DNA of 64,000 nucleotides from Cenococcum geophilum (taxonomy: Eukaryota): positions 124,001 through 188,000 of the forward strand of contig CP158635.1 of NCBI GenBank assembly GCA_050273025.1, written 5' to 3'. Under the pieces are notes generated by a model. The model was not told the origin of the DNA and made no database searches. It worked only from the letters and a program-made list of their open reading frames with translations. The translations under genes were made by a program, and so were the position numbers. This document shows positions 5,407 to 44,402 of this stretch, piece by piece (within the stretch, counting starts at the first letter, position 1; each line of letters starts with the position of its first letter).

Positions 5407-8404
5407 AAGTCTACCTTGTAATAATATTAGTTTATATCGGCCTCTTTCTTCTCTTATATTTTTTTTATAATTACTTAGGTAGTCTCCTAGGCTCTATATA
5501 TTCTTTTAGCAAATATCTAGGCCTCTTTATAGCTAAGGCGTTTACGGGCTATTATAGGTCCTATAGGTCTATCCTAATTAAAGGATGTTTATAGCTTATA
5601 TCTATAGAGTAACTTAAATAGTAATATTCCTATACTATTATAAGGGAGTATAAGCTATATATAGTCTATTATAGGTAGTAGTTCTAACTAGTTATCCTAG
5701 TAGTAATTGATAAAGGGGCGAAGTCGCTAATTAAGATATTAGTTTATAATCTCGGTTTAGCTATTAGTCTAAGGGTAGAATATAGTAGAGAGCTTAATCT
5801 TAATCTAAAGGATATAGTAAAATTTGTTTTAGAAGTCTAATGTAAATTAGGGTCTATAGTTAGAGATAATTAACTTAGGAGCACTATAGATCTAGTAAAT
5901 GTTATTAACATATATATAGGCTATATCTTTTATAGTTATAGTCTTAAAGTAGGGGAGGGAAATAGCTTACTTACTTAGTTAGTTAACTACTATAAAGGCT
6001 ATATTATAGCTATATTTATCCTTTAAGAATAATTTAAAGTCTATTATAATATACTACTAAGGGCGTTTAGGAACTAGAAGTGGTTATAACTATCTAGGGG
6101 TTTAATCCCTAGGGGTATCTACCTATTTATAAGTATAATAATTTCTAATAAATTATTCTATATTGGATAGGAGTCCTTACTAGTAGTAGTAAGGCACTAG
6201 TAGTTAGTAGGTCTTATCTTAACTAGAGTACACTATAGAGACTTAATAGTAGGCTTTATAGATTAGCTCTATTTATATATTATTAATATCTAGAACTATA
6301 AGCCGTTCTTAGTATAAAAGTAGTCTATCTTCTATTTCTAAATTAGAGTTACCTTCTATAGCTTAATTATAGAGGGCTTTTAGGGATTTAGCTATATAGT
6401 TTGCAATTAAGATATAGTTAATTAGCCCTATTAGTTTATTTAGGATCTCTCCTTCTATAGGCGCTAGCTTATTCTATTTAAAGCTTAGTTCCTTAAAAAT
6501 ATATAGGTTAAGCTATTTAGAATAGAGGAGGGTATATATTTAGCACTAAGCCTTTAGCTTATCCTATAGTTCTATATCTTATTCTCTCTAGTTAAGGGTA
6601 TTAGCTTTAGAATTTTACCTACTAGAGTAGTATATAATTGTAAAGAAAAATTAGGAGAGTATTTTAGCCTATTTAGCCTATTAACTAATAACCTACTTTA
6701 TTATTATAAAATACTTAAGGGCTTTATAATTAGTATAGACTTTAATCTAAGAGTCTATAGTTCTAAGCTCTATATATTACTAGAATAACAATTATATAAT
6801 AGCTAGTATTTTCTTATTATAATAATAACTCTTTAATTAACGTCTAATATAGATCCTACTAGCCTATATAGACTACTCCGTTATAGGGGGAAAACTTATA
6901 ATTTATATAAAGAAAACCCTATAGTTAGGTTAGGGGAGGAAAAACCCTATAAGCCACCTTAGTAGGATAAAAAAACTCCAATTTGCTATATCCGTCCATA
7001 GTAGCGGCCCTATAGGCCTATAGCTACGTCCTATCCTCCTTAAATATTTAAACTTCTTAGAAACTACTACTTTCTTCTCTAGCTTATTAAAGCTAGGGTT
7101 TACTATATCCTAGCTAGGCCTTACTAATTAACTGCTATACTATTATTTCCTATATTTTAACTATCCCCTATATACTATTTCTTAAAGACCATTGCTATAT
7201 ACCCCTTCCTCCCCCCTACTAAAGCTTTTAAAGGCATAAGGGGGATTTATCTATAACTACTATTTGATACTAAAAGGCGAGCGGGATATATATATACTTT
7301 AAGTATCTTTTATACCTAGGCCCTAGTTACTAGACCCTCTCTAAAGGTACTACTCCGTTAAGAGAAGATAAGGAAAAACTATAGGGGGTTATAATCTAGG
7401 CTGCTAGATAGTATATTGCGGTAGTAAAATAGCAAGTAACTATATACTCTATAGGTAATTACCCTAGGGCAGGTAGTTATATAGTAAAGTTTAATATACC
7501 TAATTATCTAAGCCTCTACCCTAGTTTTCTAGTAGCTTTCCCTTATCTAGGCCTAAGGGCCTAGGGCTTTCTATAAGCAGTTAGCTACTACTACTACTTA
7601 TATAGGGAATTTTACTATTCTTTTAGGTATCTTATAATAGGTTACCTAAGTGCTAATCTACCCCCTAGCAGTCTATATAAAAGTCTTCTCCTAGAGTTAG
7701 TACGCTTTTATATAGCTTAGGAGCCTTCTATAGCCTCTAGTTTTACGCCTCTTTTTATTATTTCCGCTAGTATAGATATAAGCTGCTATTTATAGGGGTT
7801 ATAACTCCTATCTTATACGCCTACTAGCGTAATCCTATAAGGGTGTTATAGCTATATCCTATAATATAGAAGCCTTAGGTACCTTCTATAGTTAAGGCCT
7901 AAATAAAACCTCTTCCGCCTAAGTAACTCCTATTTACTCCTTAAGTATATCTTACTAGTAAGCCACCCTAGAGGTAAACAGTTCCGTCTATTAATATACT
8001 AATACGTATATCCGTTCTCTTAAGCTATATAGTAATCTCTTTAGTTAGGATATAATCCTACCTACCTACTAGGTACACTAAGGGTTAGAGCCTAGTTAAA
8101 GGGTAAGGTCCTTAAAGCTAGTAATAGCTACTACGTACTACGCCCTATAGGAGGCTAGTAGTAATATAGGTGCGTAATACCCTATATGCTTTTAGTTCCC
8201 GTTTTGTATTACCTATAAGGGTCTCCCTATAATAGGCTAACTATATCTTATAAAATAGGGTTATAGACTAGGTCCTACTAGGTAACCTACTCTACCCTAT
8301 TCTACTAACTAAGCTTATACCCCCCCCTTTTATAAGCTAGCCTATATCTCTAACTATTAAGTCCTTATCTAACTAGCCTATATTTCCCTTATAGCCTCCC
8401 CTAT

Positions 8405-8712
8405 ATATATATATATTAGGTTATATATACTACGCCTATTAAGACCCTCCTATAAGTCGCCTTATATATATACGTATTAGGTTGCGTATACTATACCTAT
8501 TAAAACCCTCCTATAAGTTACCTATAAGTTAAGCGCTATAGGGCCGTTAAAGCTAGCCTATGTTTCCGCTGCCTAGAGCTTTACCTATATTTCTACCTCG
8601 TTAAGCTATCTAGTCGCCATCGCGTTACTATTGCGTTACTATTATGTCGCTATCGCTGTTAATTAGGTCGTATATACTATGCCTATTAAGACCGTCTTTT
8701 AAGTTACCTAAG
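8405..8712. repeat. Internal ~60-bp imperfect repeats within the retroposon
   Basis: Unit like attaggttgcgtatactacgcctattaagaccctcctataagtcgcct at ~8414, ~8477 and ~8662. Confidence 0.7.
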
Positions 8713-9138
8713 TATACTAGATACTAGATAGGCCCTAATAAAGGGGCCTTAATAAGTTCTTTATAGTGGCCTTAGGGCCTTAATAAGTTTTGTATAAAGT
8801 ATTTATAATATGTTAACCTTAATAAGTTCTTATAAAAGGAGGATCCCTACGCCCTTATCGCATTCCCTTTATAATCTTAGAACTAGTATAAGCCTAAGGG
8901 TGTCCTATTATACGCCTAGGATGTATCTATATTAACTAGCTAGATAAGGCTAGTTTTAGGCCTAGCTATAAGCTAGGTAGTTATATATTGGGCAGTTTTT
9001 ATATCCTAGTTTTCCTTAATAGGCCTCCCTAAATAGTAGAATAAGAGCTGTTAGTAGAGGTAGTAAGGCTCCTAGTGTTATTAAGGGCGATACTTTATAC
9101 GCGTCGCGGGCTTATTACTATAGAGTTAAATAATAGCG

Positions 9139-12100
9139 TGTAATGGGACTAGCCTAGTTACAGCAGGAATGTCTTAGTAAAATACTTAATAGATAAATTC
9201 CGACGCTTTAATTAAATTCTACTAAATTCTGCCAGCTTAATTGACTTCTGCTAAGTTCTGCCAGATTAATTAAATTTTACTAAATACCGTTAAAGACCGT
9301 ATGTATATATGCGCACGTATCGACCACCAAGACCCCTAACTATTTATTTATAAGATTCTCTTATTATTTCTTTCTCTTCTTTACGCAACGTCTTATTCTC
9401 TATAAGAGCTATACCCTTAGATTTAGATAGAATTTATATTATTTCTTTAAATCTACCCTAAAGTCTCTTTATGCCCTTATATTATGTTGCGTTAATACTA
9501 CTACCCTTAAAATAGTAAACGAACTCAAATCCGCTACGTTAACTATTATAACCCTAGTTAGGGAATAAATAATTATAATATAACAGTCCTTTATAGATGC
9601 CTTAGCCTAGTAATAAGCTATACTAAAAGCCTAGTATTAGTAATTAATTAAAGTAATATGCAAAGAACTCTATAACGCTAAAGTACTCGCGTTAGAGACC
9701 CTAACAGTAATACCTGTAAATGAGATTAAAATAACTATATCTAAACCTGGCCTATTAAATATAAACCTTAAACTAGTAATAGTAATTTAACCTATATCTA
9801 TAATAAATCTAATACCCGTTATAAAATCTAAAAAGCTTCCTAACCCTTTAATATTTAATAGAAATTAAAATAATCTACATCCCTTTATAACCAAGCTCCG
9901 TCTAAAACTTTTAATAAACTATAACTAATACCCTACTAATGCTAGCAAAATTAGCTATAGAATGTCTTATTTAAATAAGGACGCTATATAAACTATAGAT
10001 CTATTCTTTTATAATAGCACCTTTATTAATTTTAAAATCTTTATCTCTCTGCTAGAAAGAATATATAATAACGCCAGCCGCAAATATATAGCTATTACTA
10101 AACTTAAAAACCTATGATAACAGAACCAAGACTTCACCAGCTTCTTTTTAGAATTTTTAGGCCTTATTAGTAAGCTAGATTGGAATAAAGCCGCTAAAGT
10201 TGCTACTCTTTAATAAGCTATTTTGGATGAGATTAGAGCCTAGTTAGTAGGTAGGGAACTGCTAAAAGACCTACCTAAATTCGCTATAATATGTTAGCGA
10301 ATTAATAAGGACCTTTGGTATAATAAATAGACTTATTCTTTAAAGTTAACTATACTTTACGTTTAAAACTCTATAAAACTGGTATATGCTCTAAAGCGCG
10401 ATCCTTTTTTAAGACCTAAAAGCCCTATATACAACCCTATAAATCTTAATGCTACCTAATTTTATATACCCTTAGGAACTAATAAATAAAGAACCTAAGC
10501 TATAAATAGAGAATGCTTTAAATGTGGTAAAAAAGGATATATCCAAAGGAATTACCAAACTTACCCTTTTAAAAAAGTCCGCTATAGTTCCTCCCGGTCT
10601 TCAAATTATATTTACTCCTTAACTTATACTTATTTTATAAATTATACTTAAACACTATAAAGCACCTTGCTTTTGGTTAAATTAGAAAACAAATTGTTTT
10701 AGGGCCAAGTCGCGCCTTAGGATAAAAAGTGGAAGAGTATAAGTATATAGGCTCTTTTAGAGCTAATACACGACACGACTCCCTTAATGTACTTAGCAAA
10801 ATTTAAATACTTAGAAAATAGAAGGAAGTATAAATCCTTATAGACAGCGGAGCTACTAGCATAGGCTTTATTAATACGAACTACACAAAAACTTAATGCC
10901 TAAATTTAAAGAAACTTAATAAGCCCTAAGGCCTATAAGGCTTTAACGGTAAACCCTTAATATATAGCGAACTAATGTACTATACTCTTATAAAATTGTA
11001 GATAGGCGAACACCTTAAATATATTTCCCTATTTATAACTCCCTTAAAGTATTATAAAATAATACTTAGATATAGATGGCTAAAACAACATAACCCTTTA
11101 ATTAGTTGGGTTAAAGAAATACTAAAGTTCCGTACAACCTACTGCTAAAGTTATTACTTAAAATACTACTTGCCCTACAAACATATATATAACTATTTAA
11201 ATTTAATATAATACGAATTGCCTTTACTATAAACTTTAAACTAATATAATAAAGCTATGACTACCAATTATAGTAAAGAATGTAAAGATGTTTCGTTAAA
11301 ACCTTTTAAAATTCGTATAATATAAGCCGCGCCCTTTATTTTATTAGTAAGAAAATAAGATTATGAAATTTTCGCTATAATAATAGAAGATATTAAGAAA
11401 GCGCTAGAACTAAAGCAATATATTAACCCTTAACCTTTTATACTTAAAGAGTACTATAATCTAATTAACAAATTTAAAAAACAATTTATAGACTAACTAG
11501 CCCCATACCGAGATAAGTATAATTTTAAGATAGAACTTAAGCCTAGTATAACACTAAAGTTCAGTCCGCTATACGGTATATTATAAGAAGAACTGCTTAT
11601 AATGTAATAATACCTTAACAAACATCTAGAAAAAGGATTTATTCGCCCTAGTTAATCTCTATTCGCCTTACCTGTACTATTTATTAAAAAGCTAGGAGAA
11701 GGCTTAAGGTTCTATATTAATTATTAAGCTTTAAATATAATTACAATTTGAAACTAATATCTAATTCCCCTAATTTAAGAGACGCTTAACTGTTTAGTGA
11801 AGGTATGGTACTTTATAAAGCTTAATATAGTTACTACCTTTAATAAAATCCGTATATATAAAGGAGATAAGAAGTATATAGCCTTTTATATATAATAGGG
11901 ACTCTTTAAATACCTAGTAATGCTGTTTGGCGTAAAGAATGGTCCTAGTACGTTTTAGTAATATATTAATAATACGCTTTATAAATTCCTTAATATATTT
12001 ATTACCGCGTATATTAATAATATTTTAATCTACTCGTCCTTACTTTCTAAATATTAGAAATATATTAGAATAGTTTTTAACTGCCTATAAGATACGGGCT

Positions 12101-15100
12101 TATAATGCGATATTAAAAAATACAAGTTCTATGCGTCTAAAGTTACGTACTTAGGCTTAATTATATCCCGTAACAGAATTAAAATGGACCTTAAGAAAGT
12201 CGCTATAATTGTAAACTAGAAGAGTCCTAGTAGCGTATAAAATATTTAAGGATTTCTAAAATTTATAAATTTCTATTAATAATTTATTAATTACTTCTTA
12301 AAAAATTTTAACTATTAGTAAACTTAATAAGAAAAAATATAAGATTTAAATAGACTACTAAATATGAATAAGCTTTTAACGAACTAAAATATCATTTTAT
12401 AACTACTCTAATTCTCGCCTACTTTAACCCTAACCTTAAATATATTGTTAAAACAGACTCGTCTAATTATACGCTAGGGGGAGTATTATTATAATATAAT
12501 AAGAATAGCGAGCTACGTCTAGTAGCCTTTTTCTCCTGAAAACTTGCCCCTACTAAATTAAACTATAAGATATATAATAAGGAACTACTTATAATTATTA
12601 GATGCTTTAAATAATGGCGTCCTAAATTTAAAGGATTATTATTTCTAATACGCGTGTTAACGGACTATAAGAACCTGTAGTATTTTATAACTATAAAATA
12701 ATTAACGCAGCGCTAAATTTATTAGGCCGAATATCTCTTATAATTTGACTTTAAGATTATATACTAACTGGGCAAACTTAATTAGAAGCCTAATATATTA
12801 ATATAATAATTATAAGACCTACCTATAAATGCTTTAGATAAATGGATTATAAATTAATTACGGATTTTATTACCCCCTAAACGTTTTAAAAAACTATATC
12901 CTATATTCCTAGACACAGAACTTAATAGAAATAAATCGGAAGTTAATAAATAGGAAATGGAAATTAATAAGCTAATGGAATATGAATATAAGAATAATAT
13001 ATAGATAATAGATATAATAAAAGCGATTTAAATAGGAAAACAATAGTATAAGGATATTACACTCGCTTAATGCGAAATTTAAAATAATTAATTATATTAT
13101 TAATAGAAGATAGTAGTTCCGAATTCCAAACCCTTATGATTTAAGATACTCGAATTTATACACAACTCCCCTATAATAGGGCATTCTAGCTATATAAAGA
13201 CTTATAAGATTATTTAATAAGTATACTACTAGCCTATAATATATAACTATGTACGAAAATACGTTTAAGTATATAGGATATACGTGCGTAGAAAGACCTT
13301 TTATATAAAGAAGTAAGGAGTATTTTAACCGCTACCAATTTTAATACAAAGATGGCGTGATATCTCGATTAACTTTATAGTCGACTTGCCTAGTAGTAAT
13401 AGGTTTATAAATATTATAGTAGTTATTAACCGTCTTATAAAAATGCGATATATAATCCCTATAGACTTAATTAACGTAATATTAGTAGCTGAATGTTTTA
13501 TTAAGTACGTCTTTAAGCTATACGGACTTTCTAACTTAATAATATCCGACTATAGAAGCCAGTTTGTTTTAGACTTCTAGTAAGCTCTATATAAATAATT
13601 AAGTATTTAAACACAACTCTTAACTGTATTTTATCTAGAGATAGATAGTTAAACCGAAATTATGAACGCGATTATAGAATAATACCTATAAATATACTGC
13701 TCCTACCTATAAGACGACTGGGAAAAATGGCTGCCTTTAGCTAAGTTTATTGCGAATAATATAATAAATATATTAATAGGCGTAACGCCGTTCTACGCAA
13801 CCTATAGATAAGACCCTTAACTCGGATTTAAATTATAACCTAAAATTAATATAATAGGACCTATAATTAAACGGATTTAGTTAATTAATGCGTATAACTT
13901 TGCTAATTAAATAAAGTAGTTAACGGAACTATTATAAAGTAAATTAACGTACGCTTAAATGGTATAGAAATGGCACGTAAATAAAGAACAAGCTCCTATA
14001 TAGGACTTTAAGGAAAGTAATATAGTTTACCTAAGTATATAAAACCTAAAGACTTAACGGCCCTTAAAGAAACTTAACTAGAAGTTTACAGGCCTATACT
14101 AAATTAAAAAAACTAAGCCTGTACGCCTATAAGCTTAAACTGCTAACTAAGATAAAAATACACCTAATGTTTTATGTAAGCTTATTACAACGTTTAAAAG
14201 ATAACCCTACAACTCGCGAAATTCCGCCGCTACCTCCCGTAATTATTAATAACGGTAACGGTTCTTATTTTATTAACTTAATTAATAATATATAATAAAA
14301 AACACGATCTAAATAATTTAAACTTTTTGTTAAGTAGGAAGGATATAAAATATAAACCTAGGAAACCTATAACTAGATTAAGGCCAACGCGCCTTCCTTA
14401 ATAAAAGAATTCTATAAGGACTATCCTTCGCGGCCTACTTTGGCTAGATGGATATAATATAAAGGCAAATAACTGCCACCTAACACGAAGATATGAAACT
14501 TAAAAAGAACTTAAAAGATGTTATAACGTTTATAATATAATTACGTAACACGCAAGATATTAAGGAACTTTAACCGCCGGTTAAAGTTGTTTAATTAGTT
14601 AGATCTGCCTTGCCAAGACCTACTATAAAGATATTAGTTCTGCTCACCGCCTTAACTAAGCTAATAGCGATTTTCTATTTTGGGGATAGAAAATCCTAAT
14701 TAGTCCATTTAATGATAGAAACGGTAAAACTCTATACCGCCACCTAACGTAGCTATATAAATGCGATAAGTAATAAGTCTTGATTAAATTAAATTATTTT
14801 AAACCTTTAGCCTAAGGGGGGGGGGGTACTATAACGGGACTAGCCTAGTTATAGCAGGAATATCTTAGTAAAATACTTGACAGATAAATTTTAACGCTTT
14901 AATCAAATTTTACTAAATTCTACTAGCTTAATTGACTTCTGCTAAGTTCTACTAAATTAATTAAATTTTACTAAATACCGTTAAAGACCGCGTATATATA
15001 TGCGTACGTATCGACCACTAAGACCCCTAACTATTTATTTATAAGATTCTCTTGTTATTCCTTTCTCTTCTTTATATAACGTCTTATTCTCTACAAGAGC

Positions 15101-15172
15101 TATACCCTTAGATTTAGATAGAATTTATATTGTTCCTTTAAATCTACCCTAAAGTCTCTTCGTGCCCTTATA
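9139..15172 (+). mobile_element. Full-length Gypsy family A, copy 2 (gag, protease, RT, RNaseH, integrase, chromodomain), RIP-degraded
   Basis: 343-bp LTRs at 9139-9481 and 14830-15172. TSD TAGCG/CAGCG (one RIP change). Protease DSGATG ~10843, RT AYIDDILIYS ~12007, poly-G PPT ~14815-14826. Confidence 0.95.
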
Positions 15173-15211
15173 CAGCGCTATACGCGCTATAACGACTCTT
15201 TACTATCGCCT

Positions 15212-15297
15212 CTATACTTAGCTATTAAGGGGAATAGGATTTTAGATAATATTTCTATTTATGGCGATATAAACACGTATAGTAGGGCTTTATAGGC
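15212..15297 (-). ncRNA. HDV/CPEB3-like self-cleaving ribozyme fold (RIP-damaged)
   Basis: Minus strand order: P1 gcctata, J1/2, P2 ctatac, P3 gtg, L3 tttatat, P3' cgc, P1' cataaat, ag, P4 (tatta/taata), J4/2 CTAA, P2' gtatag. Reverting C>T/G>A gives P1 GCCCAUG/CAUGGGU (G.U first pair) and GCG-UUCACGU-CGC. G1 is the first base inside the TSD. Confidence 0.78.
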
Positions 15298-18200
15298 TAT
15301 TTTCTTATTATATATCTTATAGTTATACTTAGCTAGGGCTATTATCTTTAAGAAAAACGTAATAGGATACTACTTACTATCTAGGTATAACTATAAGAGA
15401 ATCCCTACTACTAATTTATTAGAGGTATCTGTTTCTAGTATTAATTTAAGGTCTAGGTTATAGTAATAGAGAATTAAGGAGGAGGTAAGTTAGTCCTTTA
15501 ACTCCTTAAAAGCTTTTATATAATTATTGTTAAAAATAATAGGCATATTATTCTTAGTTAGTTATATAAAAGGCTTAGCTATAACCCTATAGTTATAGAT
15601 AAACTAATAGTAGAAGTTATAGAAGCTAAAAAAGGACTAGATACCTTTTATAGTATAAAAGGGTTTCTAGTTATATATTGCTTTAACCTTTTTAGAGTTA
15701 ACTTTAATTCCTTTTATACTAATAATAAACCTAAGGTACTTTATTTGTTTTACTCCTAATTTATATTTCTTAATATTAACTTATAGGCCTATATTCTATA
15801 GCCTCTCTAGGACCTTTTTAATATAAACTTAGTACTTAAGTTTATTATCTAAGTATATAAAAATATTATCTAGGTATACTATGTAGAATTTATTAAGGTA
15901 GTTAAAAAGAATATTATTTATATACTATTAGTATATAGCTAGCCTATTTATTAGTCTAAAAGGAAGAACTATATATTTATAAGAATTATAGGGGGTATAG
16001 AATATTATTAGATCCTCTAATATAGGGTCTATCCTAATTTAGTAGAAAGCTTAGCGGATATTAAGCTTAGTAAAGATTTTAGCTTGGCTTAAATATATAA
16101 GGGTCTTATTAATTAGGGGGAAAGGGTAATAATATTTCTAAGTAATAGTATTTAGTTTTTAATAGTTAATATAGAAGTGGAGGCCTTTATTAGGTTTCTT
16201 TATAAATAGAATAGGGGAAGTAAAAGGGGCCTAACTTAGTTTAATAAAACCTTTATAGAGGTTATTAATTAAGTACTATTTTATAGCTTTTAGTTCTTCT
16301 ATAGTTTACTAGTAAAGGGGGCTATAGCTTAAAGAGTTATCGGTCTCTAATTAAATCTTATAATTATAGGTTTAGTAGGGGGGTTATATATCTAAGGCTA
16401 TTTTTAAGAACATATCTCTATAGTTTAAGAGGTAAGTAGGAAGAAGGCGCTTAACTAGTTCTTTATTAGTTTCCTCTACTAGCCCTTCTTTCTTCTTATT
16501 AATAATTTAGTTAATTTTATATAAGCTAGTTATAAAGACTTTATTATTCTTCTAATATATATTAAAGTAAAAACTTATAGTACTAATTACTATAATATCT
16601 ACTATAGGGGTGTTATATAGTAGTAGGGGTGTCTATAGCCTTAGGGGCTTTTAGTATATTAGTATTATGCTTACTCCTTTTAGCTTTTACTATATCTTCT
16701 AAAGGTTATCTTTTATATCCTATTAGTATATCCTCTTTTATATTAGCTAGATCTCTATAATTTAGAAGTCGTCTATATTACTATCTATTTCACTTCTATA
16801 AGTAGAGCCCTCCTTAACTATAGTACTTTAGGGGAGTATTATTATTAGTATAGAGTTTATACTAGCCTTATAGTGGGTATTTTCTTAAATAAAGGCTAGG
16901 CCTTAGTCCGTAATATTCTATTAATAGATAGGGTTAGCCTTTATAGCTAATATCTTATAGTTAGTCTAAATTTCTCTAATAAAGGAGGGTAATTTTAGTC
17001 TATTCTCTAGCTAGATAAACTATCTTTATTATATATTTAGCTAAATATTAAAGTAGAATATCTATTTTTAGCTAAGGATTATATTATAGGAACTTAGGTC
17101 TAGGATATAGAAGGGGATACTAAACTAGTATTATCTATTAATAGTAATATATAACTTTAGGATATAGGTAACCGGCTTACTAGCTTAGCTATTATAGCCT
17201 TTTACTTAAATAGGCTTCTCTAGTTAGGTAGTATTTATATTTAAGAACTTAGTAATATTATTTATATAAGAGGTATTTATAAAGGTAAAGCTATTTACTC
17301 TAGTGTTAATAAGGGTAGTTATATTAACTCTATATCTATTTTAAGATACTATATATAGAACTATAAAGTATTTTCTACCTATTAGCTAACTTAGATTAAT
17401 CTCTTTAAGATTAATAGGATACCCTAGGGGGGAGTCTTTCCCTAGGGTTCTTCTTTTCCTAACTTATTAGATAATTCTTTTTCCTCTATCCCCTTAATAT
17501 TACCTATATCCTTTAGCTCTAGGTAGGATATAATAAAGTAATTATTTTTCCGTAATTAAAGTATATAACTATAATAGGGTTAATTAGGGTATTATAATAG
17601 GTATTAGCTAAAGGTATAGTATATAGCGATTTAGATAAGATTTATAGGTAGGTAGTTATAACCGCTTTTAGTATAAGGGCGGTTATAGTTTATCTTCTAA
17701 TGCTAGTTCCTATTAGTATAGTAAATAGGTTCTAGTTACTATAGGACTTCTTTAGTTAGTTAGAATAAGTATTAATTTATTTTAGTTCTAAATCTAGTAA
17801 TAAATATTAGGCTATAAGTCTTTAGTAGGTTAGTAGGTTATCTAAAGCTACTATAATCTTCTCTTATAGTTAGACTATTAGCTTATTATATAGGTCTAAA
17901 TAGTAGTTCTTAGGGGGAACCTAGTCTTTACCTACTAGGTATAAAAATTAGGTTTAGAACTTAGTAAAGGATTAGTTTAATTTTATTATTAGGCGGTTAT
18001 AGTTATAATAGGTATTCTATACTTTATTTAGATTAATATAGATAGTAGCTAGATACTATATTATTTTATTAATAAATATAAACTAAATAGGTAACTTATT
18101 CTTAAACTTAGCCTAGAGGTATTACTAGGTATCCCTAATAGTTTAACTAAAGAGGTAGAGTATTTTAGCTTCTTTAGAGGGGAAATAGTTATAGTTAATA

Positions 18201-19671
18201 CGGAGCTTTTCTTATACTTAGATCCTCTAATTCTTAAAGGTAGGGTCTATTTTATTAGATAGTAGTTAAGGGTTAGGGAGCTTAATAGACTTTAACTGCT
18301 TTATTATTATATCTATACTCTCTAGTATATTATATTTAGTTAAGTAAATAGGTTAGCTAAGGCTTTATAAAGGGGAGGCTAGGCTATTTTATAAGGTAGT
18401 AAGGCTTTCTAGGATCTCTTTTAAAGTCTCTTATATACTTTAGGCTTAAAGATAATTAACCTTCTAATTAGCTATAAGGGTATAAATCTGCTTATATATA
18501 TTTATAATATTATTATTATCTTTAATTTCTAATTCTAATTAGATCTTATATTCCTCTTAGGTAAAAATAGGTCTTTTAAATAAGCTTACTTTAGGTACTA
18601 TTATTAGCTTTCTAAGGTTTATTAAAATTATATAATTTAGGTTTAATTCTAGGGTATAAGTTAAGTATAGTCTATTTTATAAAAGTAGGATATTATTAAG
18701 GCCTTCCTAGACGTAGTAGTATAAGTTTTTTAGTATCTAAGTATAATATATTAATACGTTATTATAGATAAAGGTCTTCTTTTAGGGTAGGATATTATTA
18801 AGGCCTTCCTAGGTAATATAGGGAGAGCTTAGTATAATATAACGGGCTTATATAAATACTTCTAAACTAAAGCTTATAGATTACTACTATATAAGAATAC
18901 TAAACTAAGGAGAAAAAGACTATTAGAGACTAATAAGATATAAGGGATCACTAAGGCACTAATAGTAAGTAGGTTAATAGTAGTGCTAGTAAAATATAGT
19001 AGAATCTAGTAGGTTGCCTAAAAATATAGTAAATTACCTTAGAAATAGTAATATAGTAGGTAATATACTTTAGTACTATTATATAATCTTTATAGAGTAC
19101 TTATATATTAATATATTCTCCTAGCCTATTCCCTACCCTTATAGCTTATTTCTTTACCTATTAGTTCTTTAAGGTAACTCTAATATCTTTACTTTTAAGG
19201 TATTAGACTATAATAGTATTATAAACCTCTTTATAAATCTCTATAAGGACTTCTATTTCTAATTATCTACTAAGCCTATCTACTTTTTCTATATTTAGTT
19301 TTATTATAAATATATACCTAGTTATTATCTTAAGGGGGTATAATATATCCCGTCTTATATTACTATATAGCTAAAAAGATAAAGAGTATTTATAAACTTA
19401 TTATAAGCGTAGCGGGATCTATTAGAAACACAGGGTGACTCACTAATAACGACTACTCGAGTAGGGTTATAGTGATATTAGTTAATTCTTTTTAATAGGA
19501 ATAAGGAAAGGGGTAAGGAACTTAAAGTTCCTTACTACGCTAGGGCCACATTAACACGTGACGGCAATATGCTTTATGCGACGGCAACTTACCTCATTTC
19601 TAATACTGGCAACTCTTCTTTTTGTAGTTGCTATATATATATATATAAACAGACAGTATATAATAATATTA

Positions 19672-19757
19672 GGCCGTCGAAAACGGACTCTATACCTATA
19701 CGTAGTGACGGCTACGAACCTAGGTCTTCGAAGTTCAGACTTAGAGCCAACGCAGAG
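19672..19757 (+). ncRNA. HDV-like self-cleaving ribozyme fold
   Basis: P1 GGCCGTC (19672-78)/GACGGCT (19707-13) with G.U first pair. P2 ctctat (de-RIP ctctgc)/gcagag. P3 acc/agt (ggt). L3 tatacgt (tgcacgt) with P1.1 partner ac (gc). 8-bp P4 ctaggtct/agacttag. J4/2 CCAAC. Confidence 0.7.
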
Positions 19758-20670
19758 ACGTCGTATAGCGTGCGATAGGACCTAGTAGTCGTGGTTATAA
19801 GCGTTGTGGGCGGTGGTAAAAAATTTTCAGATGGTGAGATCTCGAAAACCACTACTGTGGCCCTCTACAATTCAGCTACGCTACTCTCCTATTAAGGCAC
19901 CTGTACGATCTAACGTGGATATACAGCATTCGATAGCATCCCCTGACCCCCAACAGAAAGCATTAATGACCTCTTACATCAATAAATAAGTGATCGCGAA
20001 TGAGTAAACGAACAAGCAAATATACGGCCCCTCCTAACCCCTAAGGCGATCGCCCGCGGAGTATACGGTCACTCGCCGTTGACAAATACCAAATACCCAG
20101 CAGCCTAGATTGTGACCCACGGTTTTCCTTATCTCCTTTCAACGGAGTAGTAACCCTTAGAAAGGGCCTAGCTGGGGCCTAGGCATAAAAGATACCCAAT
20201 ATAACATATCCTGCTGTTAGTATTACGGTAATTAGAACGGATGAATCCCCCTTACGCCTTCAATAGGCCCTAGGGGGGGGAGGCATAGCGTATATAGTAA
20301 TGGTTAAATAAGAGATAGTATATATAGGATAGCCAAGATATGGGAAACAATAGTAAGACAGCAATTAAGTAGTAAGGCCTAGCTAGGACGTAGTAAACCC
20401 TAGCTTAAATAAGCTAGAGAAAGAAGCAGTGGTTCCTAAGGAGTTTAAACATCCAAGGAGGACAGGACGTAGCTGTAGGCCCGTAGGGCCGCTGCTATGT
20501 GCGGATATGGCAAACGGGGTTTTTTATCCTACTAAGGTGGCTTATAGGGTTTTTCCTCCCCCCCAGCAGCAAGGGTTTTTTCCCGTCAATATTACTTTTC
20601 CCTTATATACGGAGTAGTCTACATAGGGCTAGATAGCATCTGTATCAGACGTTAATCAAAGAATTATTAT
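19672..20670 (+). mobile_element. SINE-like non-autonomous retroposon (~1.0 kb) with 5' HDV-like ribozyme, inserted in the Copia 3' UTR
   Basis: 15-16-bp TSD TATATAATAATATTA(G) at 19657-19671/2 and 20671-20685/6. Tail attattat. 3' portion homologous to ~6822-7475 (minus strand). Confidence 0.82.
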
Positions 20671-23600
20671 TATATAATAATATTAGATAATATGCAACAA
20701 AACTAGATAATATATAATAAAACTAAACGATATATAACAATGCGGTAGTTAGTAGAATTTAGTAAATAACGTAAAGATAAATAGGCCGCTAAGATGCTAG
20801 TAGTAAGCGAGCTAATGGCGATTTTCTATACCAGGCATGGAAAATCCTAATTGGTTAGTAGAAGTCTATACCGCTACCTAAATTAATTAGGCATAGCGCT
20901 CTTAGCAAGGATCTAACTAATTAGATAACTTTAACCGGCGGTTAAAGTTCTATAAAATCTTAACTTCTTTAAATTTCCCTTTTAACCTAACCTTTAACTT
21001 ATATATATAGAGTATTTATATTAATAAACGTCTCTAGTGCCTTGTTTGGGTTTGCCTTCGTCATTATATCTACTAGGTTATCTTGGCCATTAATCTATTA
21101 GATCTTAAAGAGTTCTTAATACTTATAGGACTGCTAAAGTGCCATAATATCGATTATAAGACGCTTCTCCTTTATAGTACTAAGCTTGACTAAATACTTA
21201 TAGAGGGAATATAAGTTGGTGTATACAATTATAGGGATAGCGGGAAGTTTAAGCCGGTCTATAATTATCTTAAGGGTAGTTCCAATTGCAATTACTATAT
21301 TAACTCCGCCGACCATTCTATATATCTCTAATGCTAAAATGCTTTAAGTAACGCGCTTACTCTTAGTTAAGCTCTAATAGATAAGGTTACTATAGATTAT
21401 AAAGTTATTCTCTCTAGTAGATTTATTTACGATAATAATTTTATATCCTAGCTAGGAGCTAAAATCTTTATTATTTATAAACGATCTATTAACGAATACG
21501 AAGAGCTTGGCGGTAGGAAGGTTAATAAGCACATAAAGTAGTCCCCTGTTGAGGTGGTTTATTTACTAAAAAAGACGCTTATTTAGGGCAAGAACATTAT
21601 CCTTAGTTAGTTTCTGGTATTAAGCGGTAATAGAGAGATTAAAGGAAGCCTTAAGTTAATAAATAGAAGCTATATAAGCTCCGCGAGCGCGTTACTCTAC
21701 GTATCCTTACTTTAGAGAATTAACGTTAATAACGTCGATCTTCTTGCCTTAACCCTTCTGGCATAGAGTAATAGAGCCCTTATTTAGGGAGAGGATATAT
21801 CTATTAAAGAGTAATAGTATTACTAAGTTAAGTCTTTCCTTTAGCTTTGCTATAAGGTTTACCTTTACTAGCTTATCTTCTTTAAGAGCTAAGAATTAGT
21901 TATCTCCTAAGATAATTATATTGTCCGTTTATATACTAACGATTCTAAATAGAGTTCCTGTAGTTATAATAAGGAAGTAGGGATTAAATATAGAAGTAGT
22001 TATTAAAAGCTTCTCCTTATAGTGCTTACTATAGGTAGCCTACTAATAAGTTCCTGCCTCTGCGATTCTATATAATGGCTTAAGTATAACTATAATCGTA
22101 TCCTCGGGATATTAGTGGCGAATTTGCTCTGGAAGGTATACTAGTATTAAGTGCTAAAGGCGCGTCTCTAATTAGGTATAGGCCTAAGTAATATCTTATA
22201 GGTAAACCGCCATCCTATTCTTCATTAAGGAGGGAGCTAGTGTAACAATGACTTGTTAACTAGCTCGTTAAATTATAGGGGATTGTGTAAGGATTACTTC
22301 CTTACCGTTATTGTTATAACCTTAAATAACTAGCCTTGACTTCTTAAATAGGGTATTAGTAGCTTTGCCTTTAATCTTATTAACTATTCTTAACTTAAAT
22401 ATATGGACTTTATTGAACTTAGTAGGGTTATATTTCTCGAATTTGAAGACTCCTCTTATAATAAGACTGTCGATCTCCTACTTATTAGATGCTTAGAAAG
22501 GAGCTCCTGGAGTTATAATACGGCCTTCCTTTTAGAGCTGTTTTATAAGTTTAAAGTCAGCCTTCTCTTTAGCTATTATAAAGGCCATTAATAGTTTATC
22601 TCCATTCTTAATAGCGGTGACGAATTGCTCTTTGAAATTAATAAGATATTGGCGATTTTATAATCCCTTTAGGCGACCTTTACCGTGTTATAGTTACGGT
22701 ACATCTACTATAATTATATTAGAATCGCCTTCGCCTTCTAAAGTACGTTAATTGTGGTTCTTCTTTGGGGTATCCTCTGGGGTATCCTATAAAGGCTTAG
22801 AGCTATTATCCCTGTAATAGGGCTTAACAATAGTTAAGCGGAATTAAGTAGGTCTATAGGGCATCTAAAGAGTGTAAGTTTAACTATTAATTATAATAAG
22901 TTTATATAGGCCTAACTATCCTCCCTTTTTACGCCATATGCGTACCTCTGATTAGAGTGGTAGATTAAGTGTAGTTAAGGTGTTTAGGCTATTTCTTATT
23001 CCTAGTACGTTGTTAACCTAGCGCGTGGCGTAGAGATATTATACCTCCTTTATTGCCTTGCGAATAGCCTTAGCTTATTATATAATAGAGGGAGATAGTA
23101 AAAAATTGTTAGTTATTTAAGGGTAGGCGCTAAAGACTAGTAACGTAGGTACGAGCCTATCTAGGCTAGCGGTATCGTTAATAGCCTTAATAGCTATCTA
23201 TAGGATAAGCTCTTTGCTAGCACCCTCTAGTTCCGAAAAAATGATCTTATATACGCGGCGTAATGGTATATAATATTATTCTACTTTTCTAATACTATTA
23301 TATACCTTAACGGGGACTTCCTTAACCTTAATTGTTATTACCTTTGCCTGTTATTAAAACTTCGTAAATAAGAAGTTCTTTTCTATATTGTAAACGATTT
23401 AATTAGGGGGTCCTAGGTAGATATTAATTTAGTATAATTAAAGAGTATCCTATACGTTCCTAGCTGATATATCTTTTAAAAAGTGTGCGGCTTAGAAGGA
23501 GGTTAAGAAGTTAATAACTTAGAGTACTAGCTTGCCGCTAAGATATATAATATCTATAATAATATAGAAGTTAAAGTTATAGTTATCTTTAAGAGTAAAC

Positions 23601-26600: not shown

Positions 26601-29600
26601 GGTAAGGAACTTAAGGTTCCTCACTACGCTAGGGCCACGTCAACACGTGACGGCAATATGCTTTATACGACGGCAACTTGCCTTATTCCCGACAGGATCT
26701 AATATATATACTTTTACAATTACCTCTCCCTCTACGTACTTATTCTTAAGTGTTTACTATAGGGGTTATAAGCTAAGAGTTATACTATATATTAGTATCT
26801 TTAGTAATAAAAGCTACTTAGAGTTTAAGCTAGATTAGACTTTACTAACACCTCTTATATACCTAACCCCTATAGGTATATATTAGACTATACTAGAGTA
26901 AAGTATATAACTATTAGGGGTTAAACCCTTAACCTATTATTAATAGGCCCTATACCTAGCCCTAGTAAGTTTATAATTATAATTATAATATATCCTACCT
27001 TATATTACTATATAGCTAAAAAGATAAAAAGTACTTATAAACTTATTATAAGTGTAGTAGGATCTAATATATATATACTCTTATAAGGGGGTAGGTTCCC
27101 TATACTATAAAAGTATAGCTATAATAGCCTAGGTATAGTTTACTAGTAAAAGGGAGTTTTATTTATTTTTAATTTTATTTAGCTATTAAAGGTTTTAATT
27201 AAAGGTTTACTAAAAAGATACCTAAGGTTTACTAGACTAGTAAAGCTATTTTACTAGCTATATTAGTTTATTATAGCTAACTATTACTTCCCTCTAATTT
27301 TAGATACTAGATATATCTAATAGGCTTTATATTTTATTAGATACTTTCTTAATAGAGGTATTTCTACTTTATAGTATAGTATTTACCTATCTTTATTATA
27401 AAGGGCTATTACTAAGTATAGTTTTAGTAGTTATATATAAGTATAAACTACTATTATTTAATATATATCTCCCCTATAATATATATATCTTAGAGGGATT
27501 CTCTAGGTATTTTTTAGGGTTCTTTTAGTTAGTTTTAATCTTTTTAGGCTAGGTATAGTAAGAGCTCTATATAGTATTTAAATTATATAGTATATATATA
27601 TATCTATAATATAGTAGTAAAATAGGTAAAAGTAGGTAAAAGAAAATAAGTATTATAGTAGTATAATAAATATAAGTAGGGGGTTAGTTAAGTATTAGTA
27701 TATATATATATACTTCTATATTTAGAATAATAATTTAATATATAAATATATAAAGTAGGAATTATATTTAGTTATAGATATTATATATAGTAGTATTTAT
27801 TTAATTAAGTTAGTTAATAAAATAGTAAGGTAAAGTAAATAAAGAGATTTATATAGAAGGTTTAATAGGGGTATTTTATAAAAGAGTAATAGAGTAGTAT
27901 TATAGGGGTATATAAGTATAATAATAAAATTAGTAATATTAGTATAGTTATTTAATATAATAATAGTTTAGTTAATAGATATTAAAAAGAAGTTATAATA
28001 TTAATTAAGGTATATATATATAGTATCTAGTATCTAGTATCTAGTATCTATAATTATATATTATAGTAGTATATATATAAGGTTATATTATAAAATAGGA
28101 TTAGGTTTAAAGAATAAATATTATAAGTATTAGTAAATATATTATAAATAGAGATATATATTAGTTTAGTTAGGATTAGTATAGATAATAGATAATAATA
28201 GATAGTAGTAGTATTATATAAATTCTAAATATAGATTAGAAAATAAATTAAGTAAAAGGGTATATAGTATATTAGAGATATTAGAGATATTAGAGATATT
28301 TAAATAGATTATAAAAAAGGAATAAAAGGGAATAAATATTTTAAAGATATAGGTATTATATAGGTATTTTCTTTATATATCTAGAGGGTTATAAGTAGAG
28401 GATTTTTAGGAAGGCTTTTAGAAAAAGCCCTTTATATTATATATAGTAAGGGTTATAATCTAGTAGGTAGGTAGTATGGATATATAGTATAAGGAGTATT
28501 TTTTAGAAGGCTTTCTAATATTAATAGGCAAACTGTTTTAACTTAAAACGGTTTAAAAAAGAACTGTGGGATAAAGACTAGGGGTTGGAACGTTTTGAAA
28601 ATCCAATTAAATTGTTTTAACTAAGAATTAATATAAACTATTAGTTTAAAGGTCTAAAATACCACAACCTACTACGCCCGATTTATTGCTGCTATTGCTA
28701 TTAGGATGTGACCGCTATGTTATATATTTATAAGTAGGTTAGAGTAAGGTTATATTATAGTTATAAGGTTTGCTAAGGCAGGCTAATATAAGGCAGAGAG
28801 CTACCCCGCCCTTATCCTTTTAACGTACTAAGCCTTAATTTATAGATATAAAGAAGAGTATATATAATTTTTAGAAAGGTTTTTAGAAAATATATATATT
28901 TATTATATATATCTACAACCTAATACTACTAGAATCCCACTAACTTAAGAAATAAGTAAGGAAGAAATATCCTTAATAACTGGTATAAGATAACGGTCGA
29001 ATAGCTAGAGCACGTTGGAAAGATCTATTTTATATAGTCGATTATCGCTTATATCTTCAATAGGAAGATAAGTATAAGGTAGCTGCTAACCTATTAATAT
29101 ATTTTATATAAAGTCCTCTATTTGTTAACTAAACTTAATAGCGGCTAGGTAAAAGCGCTTAATAAGCTTAAGGAATATATTAAATACGCCTAATAAAAGG
29201 CGCTCTATAAAAGAATAAGGCATTTTAGATATAGGAATAAGAGTAAGAATACTAGGACTAAGTGTCTTCTATATATAATACTATTAATAGCCCTTTATAA
29301 AAGACTTTATAAAGTAGCGCTATTGCTTATTAGATAGAGTAGAGGAGTTAGCTAGTAATAAAGAAGGTATATTTATAGATAGGTAGAGTGCCTTAAAGAG
29401 CTACTACTTAATTAAAGAGGCGTTACTAATACCTTTACCCTATATACTTAATGGCGTATAATCTAGAAGTACTTCTATATTTTAATAACAATTATAGAGG
29501 TATATAAGATAATAGTAATAAAGAATATCTTAAAGTATTCTAGTTGCTTTAATACTGGTAATGTTAAAGAAAGCCTTTTAAAAGCCGAATAGCGCGGCGT

Positions 29601-42382: not shown

Positions 42383-42793
42383 AATGCTAACGCCACTCAT
42401 TGCTACTCAGGTGGGGACTGGAGCAGCGCTCAACAATGGGAAGTGTGGAAAGAAGCCACGAAATTGCAAAGTAGAATTTCATTCCATCAAGGCCGGACAA
42501 GACGAAATCATGCACAGGCTGCGAACCTCCAATCCCTCATCGCGGCCGCACGTGTTGCGGACGCACCGCCTTACAGCGCTATTCTCCTCGAGCTCGCACG
42601 CATACTGCAACTCAATACGCAGAATGACTGTGATACTGTCAATCGAGCATTAGCCGTTTTGCGCCGGGCACTGGAGTGTAGTTTGTATATCGCTGAGAAG
42701 TTATTATGCGCCCCCACTCGTTATCCAAACGCCTCATCGTGTAGGGCTGCCGAGGGGCAAGCACCTAAGCTAAGCTGCAGAGTTCCATAACAC

Positions 42794-43744: not shown

Positions 43745-44402
43745 GTTTGGTGTCTAGGGAAGATGAGGAGGATTGTGGTGTTTTCAGTCTTCCCTTGGTG
43801 GGGAATATGAGGATGAAAGTGAAGTGATTTGAGTATAAAGCGGAGTGAAGTGAGGCGGAAGTGAAGGGATGCGGCGCCCGCAGCTGTGTTTGCTTGGCAC
43901 AGCCCTGTGATATATAATTGTGTATGGGCGCACAGACGCGCGATCAATCCGTGTTAGTGGCGAACGCCCTCTGCAGAACCAGCGTGGAAAGGCAGTTTGT
44001 GTCTTCAAAGGAGAAGATACCGTTTCTAGGATGTGATGTTGATGTCGAAGTCAAAGTGCGGCTGAGGAGGGAGGTATTGACGAGCTGTGCTCCCAATAGA
44101 GAGTTTTAGCCCGCAAACACAGGAAACTATCTCTGCGCGACTGATGCCCAGGGACGACCAGTACCAACAGATCACGCTGAATTGTCGCATCCATTGGCTG
44201 AAAGCTGGGCAGCAAACCTTTTGTTCATAATACTCAGTGCGTCCCCCAAATCTCTCATCTAGGTGCTCGCTCGCTTGTCTGAACTTTCAGCCATCGGCAG
44301 GATTACTTGTCGATATGCGCTTCCTGTGCACCTCTCTCGCCACTGCATCAAAACGCACATAAGTCCACGCAGGGGTATCAGAATTGACTCCTTTTGCACG
44401 CA
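43745..44402. promoter_or_regulatory. Putative bidirectional promoter region (658 bp)
   Basis: Lies between two divergent start codons. TATA-like tatata at ~43910 and a pyrimidine-rich leader on the minus strand upstream of the 316-aa ATG. Confidence 0.5.

What the first reader, a model, noticed from the sequence alone, without database searches (positions are those of the whole stretch)
6822..20670. Pair of non-autonomous retroposons with different HDV-like ribozyme heads and a shared 3' module
Seen: two insertions (6822-15297 minus, 2.44 kb net; 19672-20670 plus, 1.0 kb), each with a 15-16-bp TSD and a short (ATT)n-like tail, share ~650 bp at the 3' end but show no evident similarity further 5'. 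Each begins at its first nucleotide with an HDV-type fold of different sequence. Established: long TSDs plus simple tails mark target-primed reverse transcription, and HDV-like ribozymes process the 5' ends of several LINE clades. Inference: these are ribozyme-headed SINE-like parasites of a fungal LINE. They could be released from read-through transcripts of the host LTR elements by self-cleavage, needing no promoter or tRNA head. Both sit inside LTR retrotransposons, one co-oriented and one antisense.
Basis: partly seen in the sequence, partly recalled or inferred. Interest (0 to 1): 0.88.

Follow-up and report, generated by a model that had tools for sequence, protein, structure and literature searches.

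The report
Ribozyme-headed fungal retroposon and chimera
Two decayed insertions in a fungal repeat block belong to a 1-kb non-coding retroposon family and to a fused by-product of it, each starting with a different hepatitis-delta-like self-cleaving RNA fold, a design known in animals and trypanosomes that I did not find described for fungal retroposons.

Summary
Both insertions are real, have 15-bp target-site duplications, and share about 640 bp at the 3' end (76% identity).

Element 2 (19672-20671, +) belongs to a multicopy, non-coding, roughly 1-kb retroposon family. In metagenome contigs, 62 full-length relatives start at the same nucleotide. Its last ~55 nt match the 3' end of an APE+RT LINE ("Z"), which also lies in the window. 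Unmutated copies fold nt 1-86 into a canonical HDV-like double pseudoknot with the cleavage site at nt 1. RNA-seq shows abundant sense RNA with a sharp 5' boundary 9-10 nt inside the element.

Element 1 is not a second family of fixed structure. It is a chimera of a 1.8-kb non-coding RNA ("X"), which has its own different HDV-like head, fused to a 5'-truncated element-2 copy. Four X chimeras have four different junctions, and each is flanked by one duplication. This is the signature of reverse-transcriptase template switching, as in Magnaporthe MINE/WEIRD.

Both window copies are RIP-degraded. Self-cleavage is inferred, not shown: Rfam hits to HDV models fall below the gathering scores.

Verdict: new member of known kinds, moderately interesting.

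The parts
19672..20671 (+). Element 2: a RIP-mutated full-length copy of a ~1-kb non-coding, SINE-like retroposon family (the 'e2-type')
   Evidence: Sequence read. 62 full-length relatives share the same first nucleotide. 40 or more distinct DNA contigs cover each listed site in run X1. No Pfam hit in the 3 forward frames.
19672..19759 (+). HDV-like ribozyme head of element 2, decayed. Helices: P1 nt 1-7/36-42, P2 17-22/81-86, P3 23-25/33-35, P1.1 27-28/43-44, P4 48-75, and C76 in J4/2.
   Evidence: Descriptor scans and pair counts on 63 copies. Reading alignment A2, the window copy breaks 3 of 27 pairs: A21.C82, C25.A33 and A27.C44.
19657..19671 (.). Left target-site duplication of element 2
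20672..20686 (.). Right target-site duplication of element 2
20039..20671 (+). The 3' module shared with element 1. Its last ~55 nt, and a block ~250 nt upstream, are homologous to the 3' end of LINE Z. The tail is a RIP-mutated (TAC)n.
15178..15297 (-). First 120 nt of element 1, the X part. nt 1-85 (15297-15213) is the decayed second HDV-like head.
   Evidence: The window copy keeps 4 of 7 P1 pairs (read from alignment A3).
7469..9138 (-). Rest of the X part of element 1 (X nt 121 to ~1790). Non-coding, with internal 61-nt repeats.
6822..7469 (-). 5'-truncated e2-type part of element 1 (e2 nt ~366-999), joined directly to the X 3' end
6807..6821 (.). Target-site duplication of element 1 (3' side)
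15298..15312 (.). Target-site duplication of element 1 (5' side)
   Evidence: X5 contigs begin to match here
9139..15172 (.). Later LTR retrotransposon nested in element 1. It is not part of the element.
27074..27569 (-). 5' end (nt ~1-496) of a RIP-degraded copy of LINE Z, the presumed autonomous partner
19084..19338 (-). Continuation of that LINE Z copy (nt 481-735). It is separated from its 5' end by the LTR-bounded element that hosts element 2.

Best explanation
Element 2 is a dead, RIP-mutated copy of a non-autonomous retroposon of about 1 kb with no coding capacity.

Proposed cycle:
1. The element is transcribed. The promoter is unknown.
2. Its first ~86 nt fold into an HDV-like ribozyme that cuts immediately 5' of G1. 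This removes any upstream transcript and fixes the RNA 5' end (inferred).
3. Its 3' end copies the 3' end and (TAC)n tail of an APE+RT LINE (Z) in the same genome. The LINE's protein therefore reverse-transcribes it at AT-rich nicks, giving 13-17-bp duplications.
4. The cDNA usually reaches G1, so nearly all copies are full length.

Element 1 arose in a single such event. The reverse transcriptase copied an e2-type RNA up to about nt 366. It then jumped to the 3' end of a different RNA, X (1.8 kb, non-coding), and copied that RNA to its own ribozyme-defined first nucleotide.

RIP later inactivated both window copies.
For: Shown:
- Exact common 5' ends with unrelated upstream flanks in 62 of 62 full-length e2-type copies and 6 of 6 X heads.
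- Duplications of 11-19 bp (one mismatch allowed) in 48 of 55 full-length copies tested, and (TAC)n tails.
- 61 full-length copies, against 14 that are truncated or diverged inside a locus. Of those 14, 4 are LINE Z ends. A further 58 are cut by locus ends.
- A strict HDV descriptor hit 45 of 287,918 G positions in 804 kb on both strands. 25 hits were nt 1 of e2-type copies, 2 were nt 1 of X copies, and 18 were scattered singletons.
- Both heads have the same geometry: 7-bp P1 with a G1.U wobble, 6-bp P2, 3-bp P3, 7-nt L3, 2-bp P1.1, and C76 followed by N-R-A.
- 95.4% of cells are paired in 63 e2-type heads, against 27-42% when partners are slid. For 6 X heads the figures are 91.1% against 31-55%.
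- One transversion-type compensatory pair: G5-C38 in 52 rows and C5-G38 in 5 rows.
- P4 comes in six lengths (14-25 nt). It folds as a closed hairpin in 44 of 63 copies.
- Rfam on the X head: HDV_ribozyme 28.0 bits (E 0.015) and HDV-F-prausnitzii 27.7 bits (E 0.0012). Both match the full model and place the cleavage site at X nt 1. The e2-type head gives HDV-F-prausnitzii 13.2 bits (E 3.2), starting at nt 1.
- RNA-seq run X21: depth over element 2 is 487-4250, falling to 47 in the last bin (first mate on -), against 0-0.2 in the neighbouring bins. 315+239 of about 1050 molecules end at 19681/19682. Nearly all reads carry G at 19704, which restores the C25-G33 pair.
- LINE Z: RVT_1 hit. It is 73% and 67% identical to P0001, an intact protein of 1026 aa with RVT_1 and Exo_endo_phos domains.
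- 3'-end homology scores 40-46 against a shuffle maximum of 17.
- Chimeras: the X 3' end is constant. Partner junctions lie at e2 nt 2, 241 and ~366, at Z nt 2646, and at X nt 539. Single flanking duplications measure 15, 13, 15 and 14 bp.
Against: - No cleavage was observed.
- All Rfam scores are below gathering (50 and 44 bits), and the window itself gives no hit.
- Only 25 of 63 e2-type heads and 2 of 6 X heads pass the strict descriptor. I attribute the rest to RIP damage and bulges, but that is an inference.
- I wrote the descriptor after seeing the first fold. My first P2/P4 assignment had to be replaced.
- Nearly all changes on both sides of a pair are G-C to A-U, which RIP alone can produce.
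- A 5-copy subfamily has a U.C mismatch inside P1.
- RNA ends lie 9-10 nt inside the element, not at nt 1. I explain this by the usual loss of extreme 5' ends in such libraries, which is recalled and not tested.
- RNA-seq cannot tell a transcription start from a cleavage site.
- The relatives come from metagenome contigs chosen because they carry the 3' module. Solo X copies would not have been sampled, and the source organism may not be the window's.
Confidence: 0.75

Rival explanations
1. The heads are not ribozymes. The common 5' ends come from an internal promoter that starts transcription at nt 1, and the HDV-like pairing is incidental or serves another purpose, for example protein binding.
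For: High sense-strand RNA depth with silent flanks fits an internal promoter. Rfam scores are below gathering. RNA ends map at nt 10-11. In L1Tc the same 77 nt act as both promoter and ribozyme, so the two roles are not exclusive (abstract of PMC3383444 as listed).
Against: Two unrelated sequences both satisfy a descriptor with a background of 18 hits in about 288,000 positions, and both do so exactly at nt 1. The HDV covariance models align in register with the cleavage site at nt 1. No tRNA, 5S or 7SL head was found.
Confidence: 0.1
2. One reading: element 1 is a copy of a second, fixed-structure non-autonomous retroposon family that owns both its ribozyme head and the shared 3' module.
For: The X head and body recur in other loci. 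The window copy has one clean 15-bp duplication.
Against: 4 of 4 complete X copies have different junctions and different partners: e2-type at nt 2, 241 and ~366, and LINE Z at nt 2646. One copy is tripartite.
Confidence: 0.04
3. e2-type elements inserted independently, with variable 5' truncation, into a preferred site at the end of resident X elements. These would be nested insertions, not template switching.
For: The X 3' end is constant while the e2 5' end is variable, as with site-specific elements such as R2.
Against: The duplications flank X plus partner as one unit in 4 of 4 cases. No duplication flanks the partner alone, and no X sequence follows the partner's tail.
Confidence: 0.05
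4. Both insertions are ordinary 5'-truncated or internally deleted pieces of the LINE.
For: The last ~55 nt, and a block ~250 nt upstream, resemble the LINE 3' end.
Against: Similarity to LINE Z stops there. The 5' ends are homogeneous. The LINE 5' end is different and gives no HDV hit.
Confidence: 0.03

Closest known systems
R2 SIDEs and R2/R1 hybrid SIDEs of Drosophila (PMC3414825; outline and abstract read)
   Same: A non-autonomous element made of a 5' HDV-like ribozyme plus the 3' end recognised by a LINE. In the hybrid SIDE the ribozyme does not come from the LINE whose machinery is used. Template jumps to other RNAs were seen there too.
   Different: Those elements sit in rDNA and are co-transcribed with rRNA. 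The family here is dispersed in AT-rich repeats, is 1 kb long and is fungal. Its ribozyme shows no source LINE in the data at hand.
L1Tc / NARTc / SIDER with the Pr77 HDV-like ribozyme in trypanosomatids (PMC3185411, PMC3383444, PMC4035085; search listings and abstract starts only)
   Same: The first ~77-86 nt of autonomous and non-autonomous retroposons form an HDV-like ribozyme that defines the RNA 5' end.
   Different: There the LINE and its non-autonomous derivatives share one head, which is also a promoter. Here the LINE shows no such head, and promoter activity is unknown.
MINE (WEIRD + MGL) and tripartite chimeras of Magnaporthe grisea (PMC2104539; outline, abstract and section 5 read)
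   Same: A full-length non-coding RNA sits at the 5' side, fused to 5'-truncated LINE or SINE copies with variable junctions, flanked by one 10-20-bp duplication. A tripartite form exists, and no solo copy of the 5' partner is known.
   Different: No ribozyme is mentioned for WEIRD in the parts I read. X is 1.8 kb against 1.1 kb, and sequence relatedness was not tested.
Fungal HDV ribozymes of Li and Breaker 2017 (PMC5640933; passages read)
   Same: HDV-class self-cleaving RNAs occur in many copies in ascomycete genomes. Two were shown to cleave.
   Different: The 230 variants reported there have a C-G pair at the cleavage site, an E-loop in P4 and an extra nucleotide between P2 and P3. The two heads here are canonical: G.U pair, plain P4 hairpin and no extra nucleotide. 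The words retrotransposon and transposon do not occur in that paper's main text.

Membership tests
HDV-like self-cleaving ribozyme | Nested double pseudoknot with P1, P1.1, P2, P3 and P4 in the canonical order | tested here: met
   Met in unmutated relatives of both heads (pair counts). In the window copies it is decayed: element 2 fits only with one P3 mismatch, and element 1 does not fit.
HDV-like self-cleaving ribozyme | Cleavage site 5' of a purine at the base of P1, typically a G.U wobble | tested here: met
   G1.U42 in 59 of 60 e2-type rows with letters. G1.U41 in 6 of 6 X rows.
HDV-like self-cleaving ribozyme | Catalytic cytosine in J4/2, directly after P4 | tested here: inconclusive
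   A C at nt 76 followed by N-R-A is present in both heads, and it is invariant in the 63 e2-type rows. Its catalytic role cannot be shown by sequence.
HDV-like self-cleaving ribozyme | Score at or above Rfam's gathering threshold for an HDV family | tested here: not met
   28.0 bits against 50, 27.7 against 44, and 13.2 against 44. No hit in the window.
HDV-like self-cleaving ribozyme | Self-cleavage giving a 5'-OH and a 2',3'-cyclic phosphate | not testable with these tools
   The only evidence is indirect: a pile-up of RNA ends at nt 10-11.
LINE-dependent non-autonomous retroposon (SINE-like) | Target-site duplications and a simple-repeat tail | tested here: met
   48 of 55 copies have duplications, with (TAC)n tails. 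The window copies have 15-bp duplications.
LINE-dependent non-autonomous retroposon (SINE-like) | 3' end shared with an autonomous APE+RT LINE of the same genome | tested here: met
   LINE fragments lie in the window. Pfam alone did not find the APE domain in the RIP-degraded copy.
LINE-dependent non-autonomous retroposon (SINE-like) | No coding capacity | tested here: met
   No Pfam hit. The longest open stretch is 169 codons in one copy.
Canonical SINE | Pol III head derived from tRNA, 7SL or 5S | tested here: not met
   No tRNA found by ARAGORN in 3 loci. No such Rfam family.
Template-switch chimeric retroelement (MINE type) | A full-length 5' RNA copy joined to a 5'-truncated retroposon at variable points, with one duplication around the whole | tested here: met
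   4 of 4 complete X copies

The most novel reading that the evidence does not exclude
X, and by analogy WEIRD-type RNAs, is not a housekeeping RNA caught by accident. It is a selfish, ribozyme-headed RNA with no LINE recognition module of its own. It spreads only as the acceptor in reverse-transcriptase template jumps. Its HDV-like head gives it a promoter-independent, precisely defined 5' end wherever a chimera lands. This would explain why no solo gene for such 5' partners is found.
Probability: 0.25. Interest if true: 0.8.

Novelty: new member of a known kind. Interest (0 to 1): 0.6.

Why it matters
This finding places canonical HDV-like ribozymes at the first nucleotide of a dispersed fungal retroposon family. 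It also places one at the 5' partner of MINE-like chimeras.

That gives a concrete context, namely 5'-end definition of retroposon RNAs, for multicopy HDV ribozymes in fungi. Li and Breaker 2017 reported such ribozymes with "widely variable gene associations".

It also suggests a simple test for the long-unexplained WEIRD RNA of Magnaporthe: does it begin with such a fold?

In addition, the data document a LINE/SINE pair and repeated template switching in a RIP-active genome.

Tried and rejected
- No whole genome is held for this window. The genome search could not reach the records behind the metagenome loci. Three look-ups of earlier findings returned nothing.
- A second class of copies that seemed to start at e2 nt ~565 is an artefact. 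Loci L081-L123 carry only ~300-nt flanks.
- My first HDV solution for element 2 (P2 17-21/71-75, P4 46-48/62-64) was dropped. The unmutated copies showed that 49-73 is a variable-length hairpin (P4) and that 81-86 pairs with 17-22.
- I considered that cleavage by the e2-type ribozyme in an X-e2 tandem might create the constant X 3' end. L009 does not support this. Its junction lacks G1 and looks like another template jump with GCC microhomology.
- Pfam and PDB sequence searches on the LINE's endonuclease region found nothing. The domain was placed only through the intact relative P0001.
- An 18-frame Pfam call on the host elements was too large to print. It was replaced by two frames.
- The L044 arrangement, e2-type directly upstream of LINE Z, is a nested insertion with its own duplication and not a chimera.
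- Rfam found no other family in the X or e2-type bodies at E<=1, apart from two weak microRNA look-alikes.
Full report
**Setting.** The window is an AT-rich fungal repeat block (GC 0.20-0.40), with one island of GC about 0.5 at 42-47 kb. TpA-rich transitions typical of RIP are everywhere. No ORF of 120 codons is open in the first 30 kb. No whole genome is held for this window.

**Checking the observation.**
- Element 2 runs from 19672 to 20671 (+). It lies between two copies of TATATAATAATATTA.
- Element 1 lies on the minus strand. Its first 120 nt are at 15297-15178 and the rest at 9138-6822. An LTR element at 9139-15172 (342-bp LTRs 91% alike, 5-bp duplication) was inserted into it later.
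- Element 1 is flanked by TATTTTCTTATTATA at 6807-6821 and 15298-15312.
- The last 632-648 nt of the two elements align at 76%. Nothing further 5' aligns, and the window holds no third copy.
- Neither element gives a Pfam hit in any forward frame when read through stops with X.
- Rfam gives no ribozyme hit in 6000-21500 even at E<=10.

**Sequencing runs.**
- In DNA contigs of two coded organisms, each listed site of element 2 is covered by 40-50 distinct contigs, so the family is multicopy there.
- In a raw stranded RNA-seq run (X21), depth over element 2 is 487-4250, falling to 47 in the last bin. These are reads whose first mate lies on the minus strand, which in most stranded libraries means RNA of the + sense.
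- The neighbouring bins have depth 0-0.2.
- Of about 1050 molecules, 315 end at 19681 and 239 at 19682. That is 9-10 nt inside the element.
- Most reads are less than 90% like the window copy, so they come from other, less mutated copies.
- Almost all reads and contigs carry G at 19704, where the window has A.
- Contigs of run X5 that start matching at 15298/15300 with unaligned remainders fit paralogous empty sites for element 1.

**Relatives.** I scanned metagenome contigs with a RIP-tolerant 29-mer from a block that is identical in the two 3' modules.
- BLAST found 62 full-length e2-type copies. All begin at the same nucleotide and have unrelated upstream DNA.
- Of the 3' ends found, 61 belong to full-length copies, 58 are cut by locus ends, and 14 are truncated or diverged inside a locus. 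Of those 14, 4 are LINE ends and several are chimeras.
- Duplications of 11-19 bp (one mismatch allowed) were found in 48 of 55 full-length copies tested. The unmutated tail is (TAC)n, so the window's ATT-type tail is its RIP product.
- No copy has an open stretch longer than 169 codons.
- An apparent class of copies starting at nt ~565 was an artefact of loci with short flanks.

**The ribozyme in the e2-type head.** In unmutated copies the first 86 nt form the following helices (positions counted from the element's first nucleotide):

| Helix | Positions | Note |
|---|---|---|
| P1 | 1-7 with 36-42 | GGCCGUC/GACGGCU, with a G1.U42 wobble |
| P2 | 17-22 with 81-86 | |
| P3 | 23-25 with 33-35 | |
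| L3 | 26-32 | 7-nt loop |
| P1.1 | G27-C44, U28-A43 | |
| P4 | between 48 and 75 | hairpin |
| J4/2 | from C76 | C76 followed by C-A-A |

- On 63 heads, 95.4% of 1580 cells are standard pairs, against 27-42% when the 3' partners are slid by 1-3 columns.
- Variation is mostly RIP-type. The one clear transversion-type compensation is G5-C38 (52 rows) against C5-G38 (5 rows). The same 5 rows have a U.C mismatch at pair 3/40.
- P4 occurs in six lengths from 14 to 25 nt. It folds as a closed hairpin in 44 of 63 copies. P4 is the variable helix of this ribozyme class.
- The window copy has lost 3 of 27 pairs through G-to-A changes (read from alignment A2).

**The head of element 1.** The window copy gave no HDV solution. 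Its 1.8-kb 5' part, which I call X, recurs in L005, L009 and L026. X heads also lie at contig ends in L014 and L045. All six X copies start at the same G.
- Unmutated X heads fold as follows: P1 1-7/35-41 (GCCCGCG/CGCGGGU, with G1.U41), P2 16-21/80-85, P3 22-24/32-34, a 7-nt L3, P1.1 C26-G43 and C27-G42, a P4 hairpin at 47-74, then G-C76-U-A-A.
- 91.1% of cells are paired, against 31-55% when slid.
- Rfam on one such head gives HDV_ribozyme at 28.0 bits (E 0.015) and HDV-F-prausnitzii at 27.7 bits (E 0.0012). Both match the full model, with the model's cleavage site at X nt 1.
- The e2-type head gives HDV-F-prausnitzii at 13.2 bits (E 3.2), starting at nt 1.
- All these scores are below the gathering thresholds.

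**How often by chance.** The strict descriptor requires a 7-bp P1, a 3-bp P3 abutting it, a 2-bp P1.1, P2 of at least 5 bp, P4 of at least 4 bp, and C-N-R-A.
- It hit 45 of 287,918 G positions in the loci plus the window, on both strands.
- 25 hits are nt 1 of e2-type copies and 2 are nt 1 of X copies. The other 18 are unrelated singletons, mostly AT-rich.
- The looser first descriptor hit 19-67 of 21,179 positions in the window. A RIP-tolerant version hit 206 of 42,747.
- I wrote the descriptors after seeing the first fold, so these rates are a guide and not a blind test.

**Element 1 is a chimera.** The X part always ends at the same nucleotides. What follows it differs in each copy:

| Copy | Sequence following X |
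|---|---|
| L009 | e2-type from nt 2 |
| L005 | e2-type from nt 241, preceded by a second partial X from nt 539 (tripartite) |
| Window | e2-type from nt ~366 |
| L026 | the last 1.16 kb of a LINE |

Each whole unit is flanked by one duplication, of 15, 13, 15 and 14 bp. No duplication flanks the partner alone. This is the pattern described for MINE (WEIRD+MGL) and for a tripartite chimera in Magnaporthe. There it is explained by template switching of the LINE reverse transcriptase, and no solo WEIRD copy was found (PMC2104539: abstract and section 5). My sample was selected by the 3' module, so it cannot show that solo X copies are absent.

**The LINE.** A family I call Z shares its last ~55 nt (about 88% identity) and a block ~250 nt upstream with the e2-type 3' end. 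Local alignment scores are 40-46, against a shuffle maximum of 17.
- Z is about 5.5 kb long. Three copies share a common 5' end, and several copies are 5'-truncated.
- A RIP-degraded copy gives an RVT_1 hit at 3e-9.
- Pfam and PDB searches did not find its endonuclease.
- An intact relative, P0001 (1026 aa, RVT_1 plus two Exo_endo_phos families), is 73% identical to the RT region (E 2e-185). It is 67% identical over its residues 1-227 to the Z region upstream.
- The Z 5' end gave no descriptor hit and no Rfam hit. All Z copies tested were RIP-affected.
- Z is present in the window: nt 3-496 at 27567-27074 and nt 481-735 at 19338-19084, both on the minus strand. The two pieces are split by the LTR-bounded element (19339-27069) that hosts element 2.
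- Element 1 sits in a gypsy-type pol of the same orientation.

**Literature.**
- HDV-like ribozymes at the 5' ends of R2, L1Tc, baggins and RTE, and in some non-autonomous elements of metazoans, are reviewed in PMC6765202 (passages read).
- HDV ribozymes are known in fungi. 11 are canonical and about 223 are variants, across 26 species, and two were shown to cleave. The words retrotransposon and transposon do not occur in that paper's main text (PMC5640933: passages read).
- Four full-text searches listed no paper whose title or abstract start describes an HDV-like head on a fungal retroposon. Subscription journals and supplements were not covered.

**Verdict.** The anatomy is confirmed. The ribozyme reading is well supported by structure, register and RNA ends, but cleavage is not demonstrated. 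The design is known elsewhere, so this is a new member of known kinds, with one fresh lead: 5' partners of fungal chimeric retroelements may be ribozyme-processed RNAs.

Noticed in passing
window 27074-27569 (-) and 19084-19338 (-): A RIP-degraded copy of the APE+RT LINE Z, including its 5' end. It is split near its nt ~490 by an LTR-bounded element at 19339-27069.
   Followed up: partly
window 19339-19598, 26509-26687 and 26984-27069: The LTR-like repeats of the element hosting element 2 are in a different order at the right end. The two sub-blocks have spacings of 7645 and 7089, which suggests a rearranged or compound right LTR.
   Followed up: no
window 8399-8520 and 8646-8706: Three 61-nt repeats inside the X part. 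The same region (X nt ~540-750) is self-similar in L005, L009 and L026.
   Followed up: no
window 26130-26311: Two tandem 91-nt units, 88% alike.
   Followed up: no
window 42001-47000: An island of GC 0.48-0.52 inside the AT-rich block, probably a gene region spared by RIP.
   Followed up: no
L005 7858-10897 (-): A tripartite chimera with one 13-bp duplication: full X, then X from nt 539, then e2-type from nt 241. This implies two template jumps in one event.
   Followed up: yes
window 19760-20015 (tables 4 and 5): RNA reads show several skips (59-90 nt) and small insertions relative to the window copy. Expressed copies therefore belong to subfamilies with a different variable region between the head and the 3' module.
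   Followed up: no
L036:1723, L059:6130, L064:6129, L069:2026, L040:544: A 5-copy e2-type subfamily with a changed P1 (one compensated pair and one U.C mismatch) and a 23-nt P4.
   Followed up: partly
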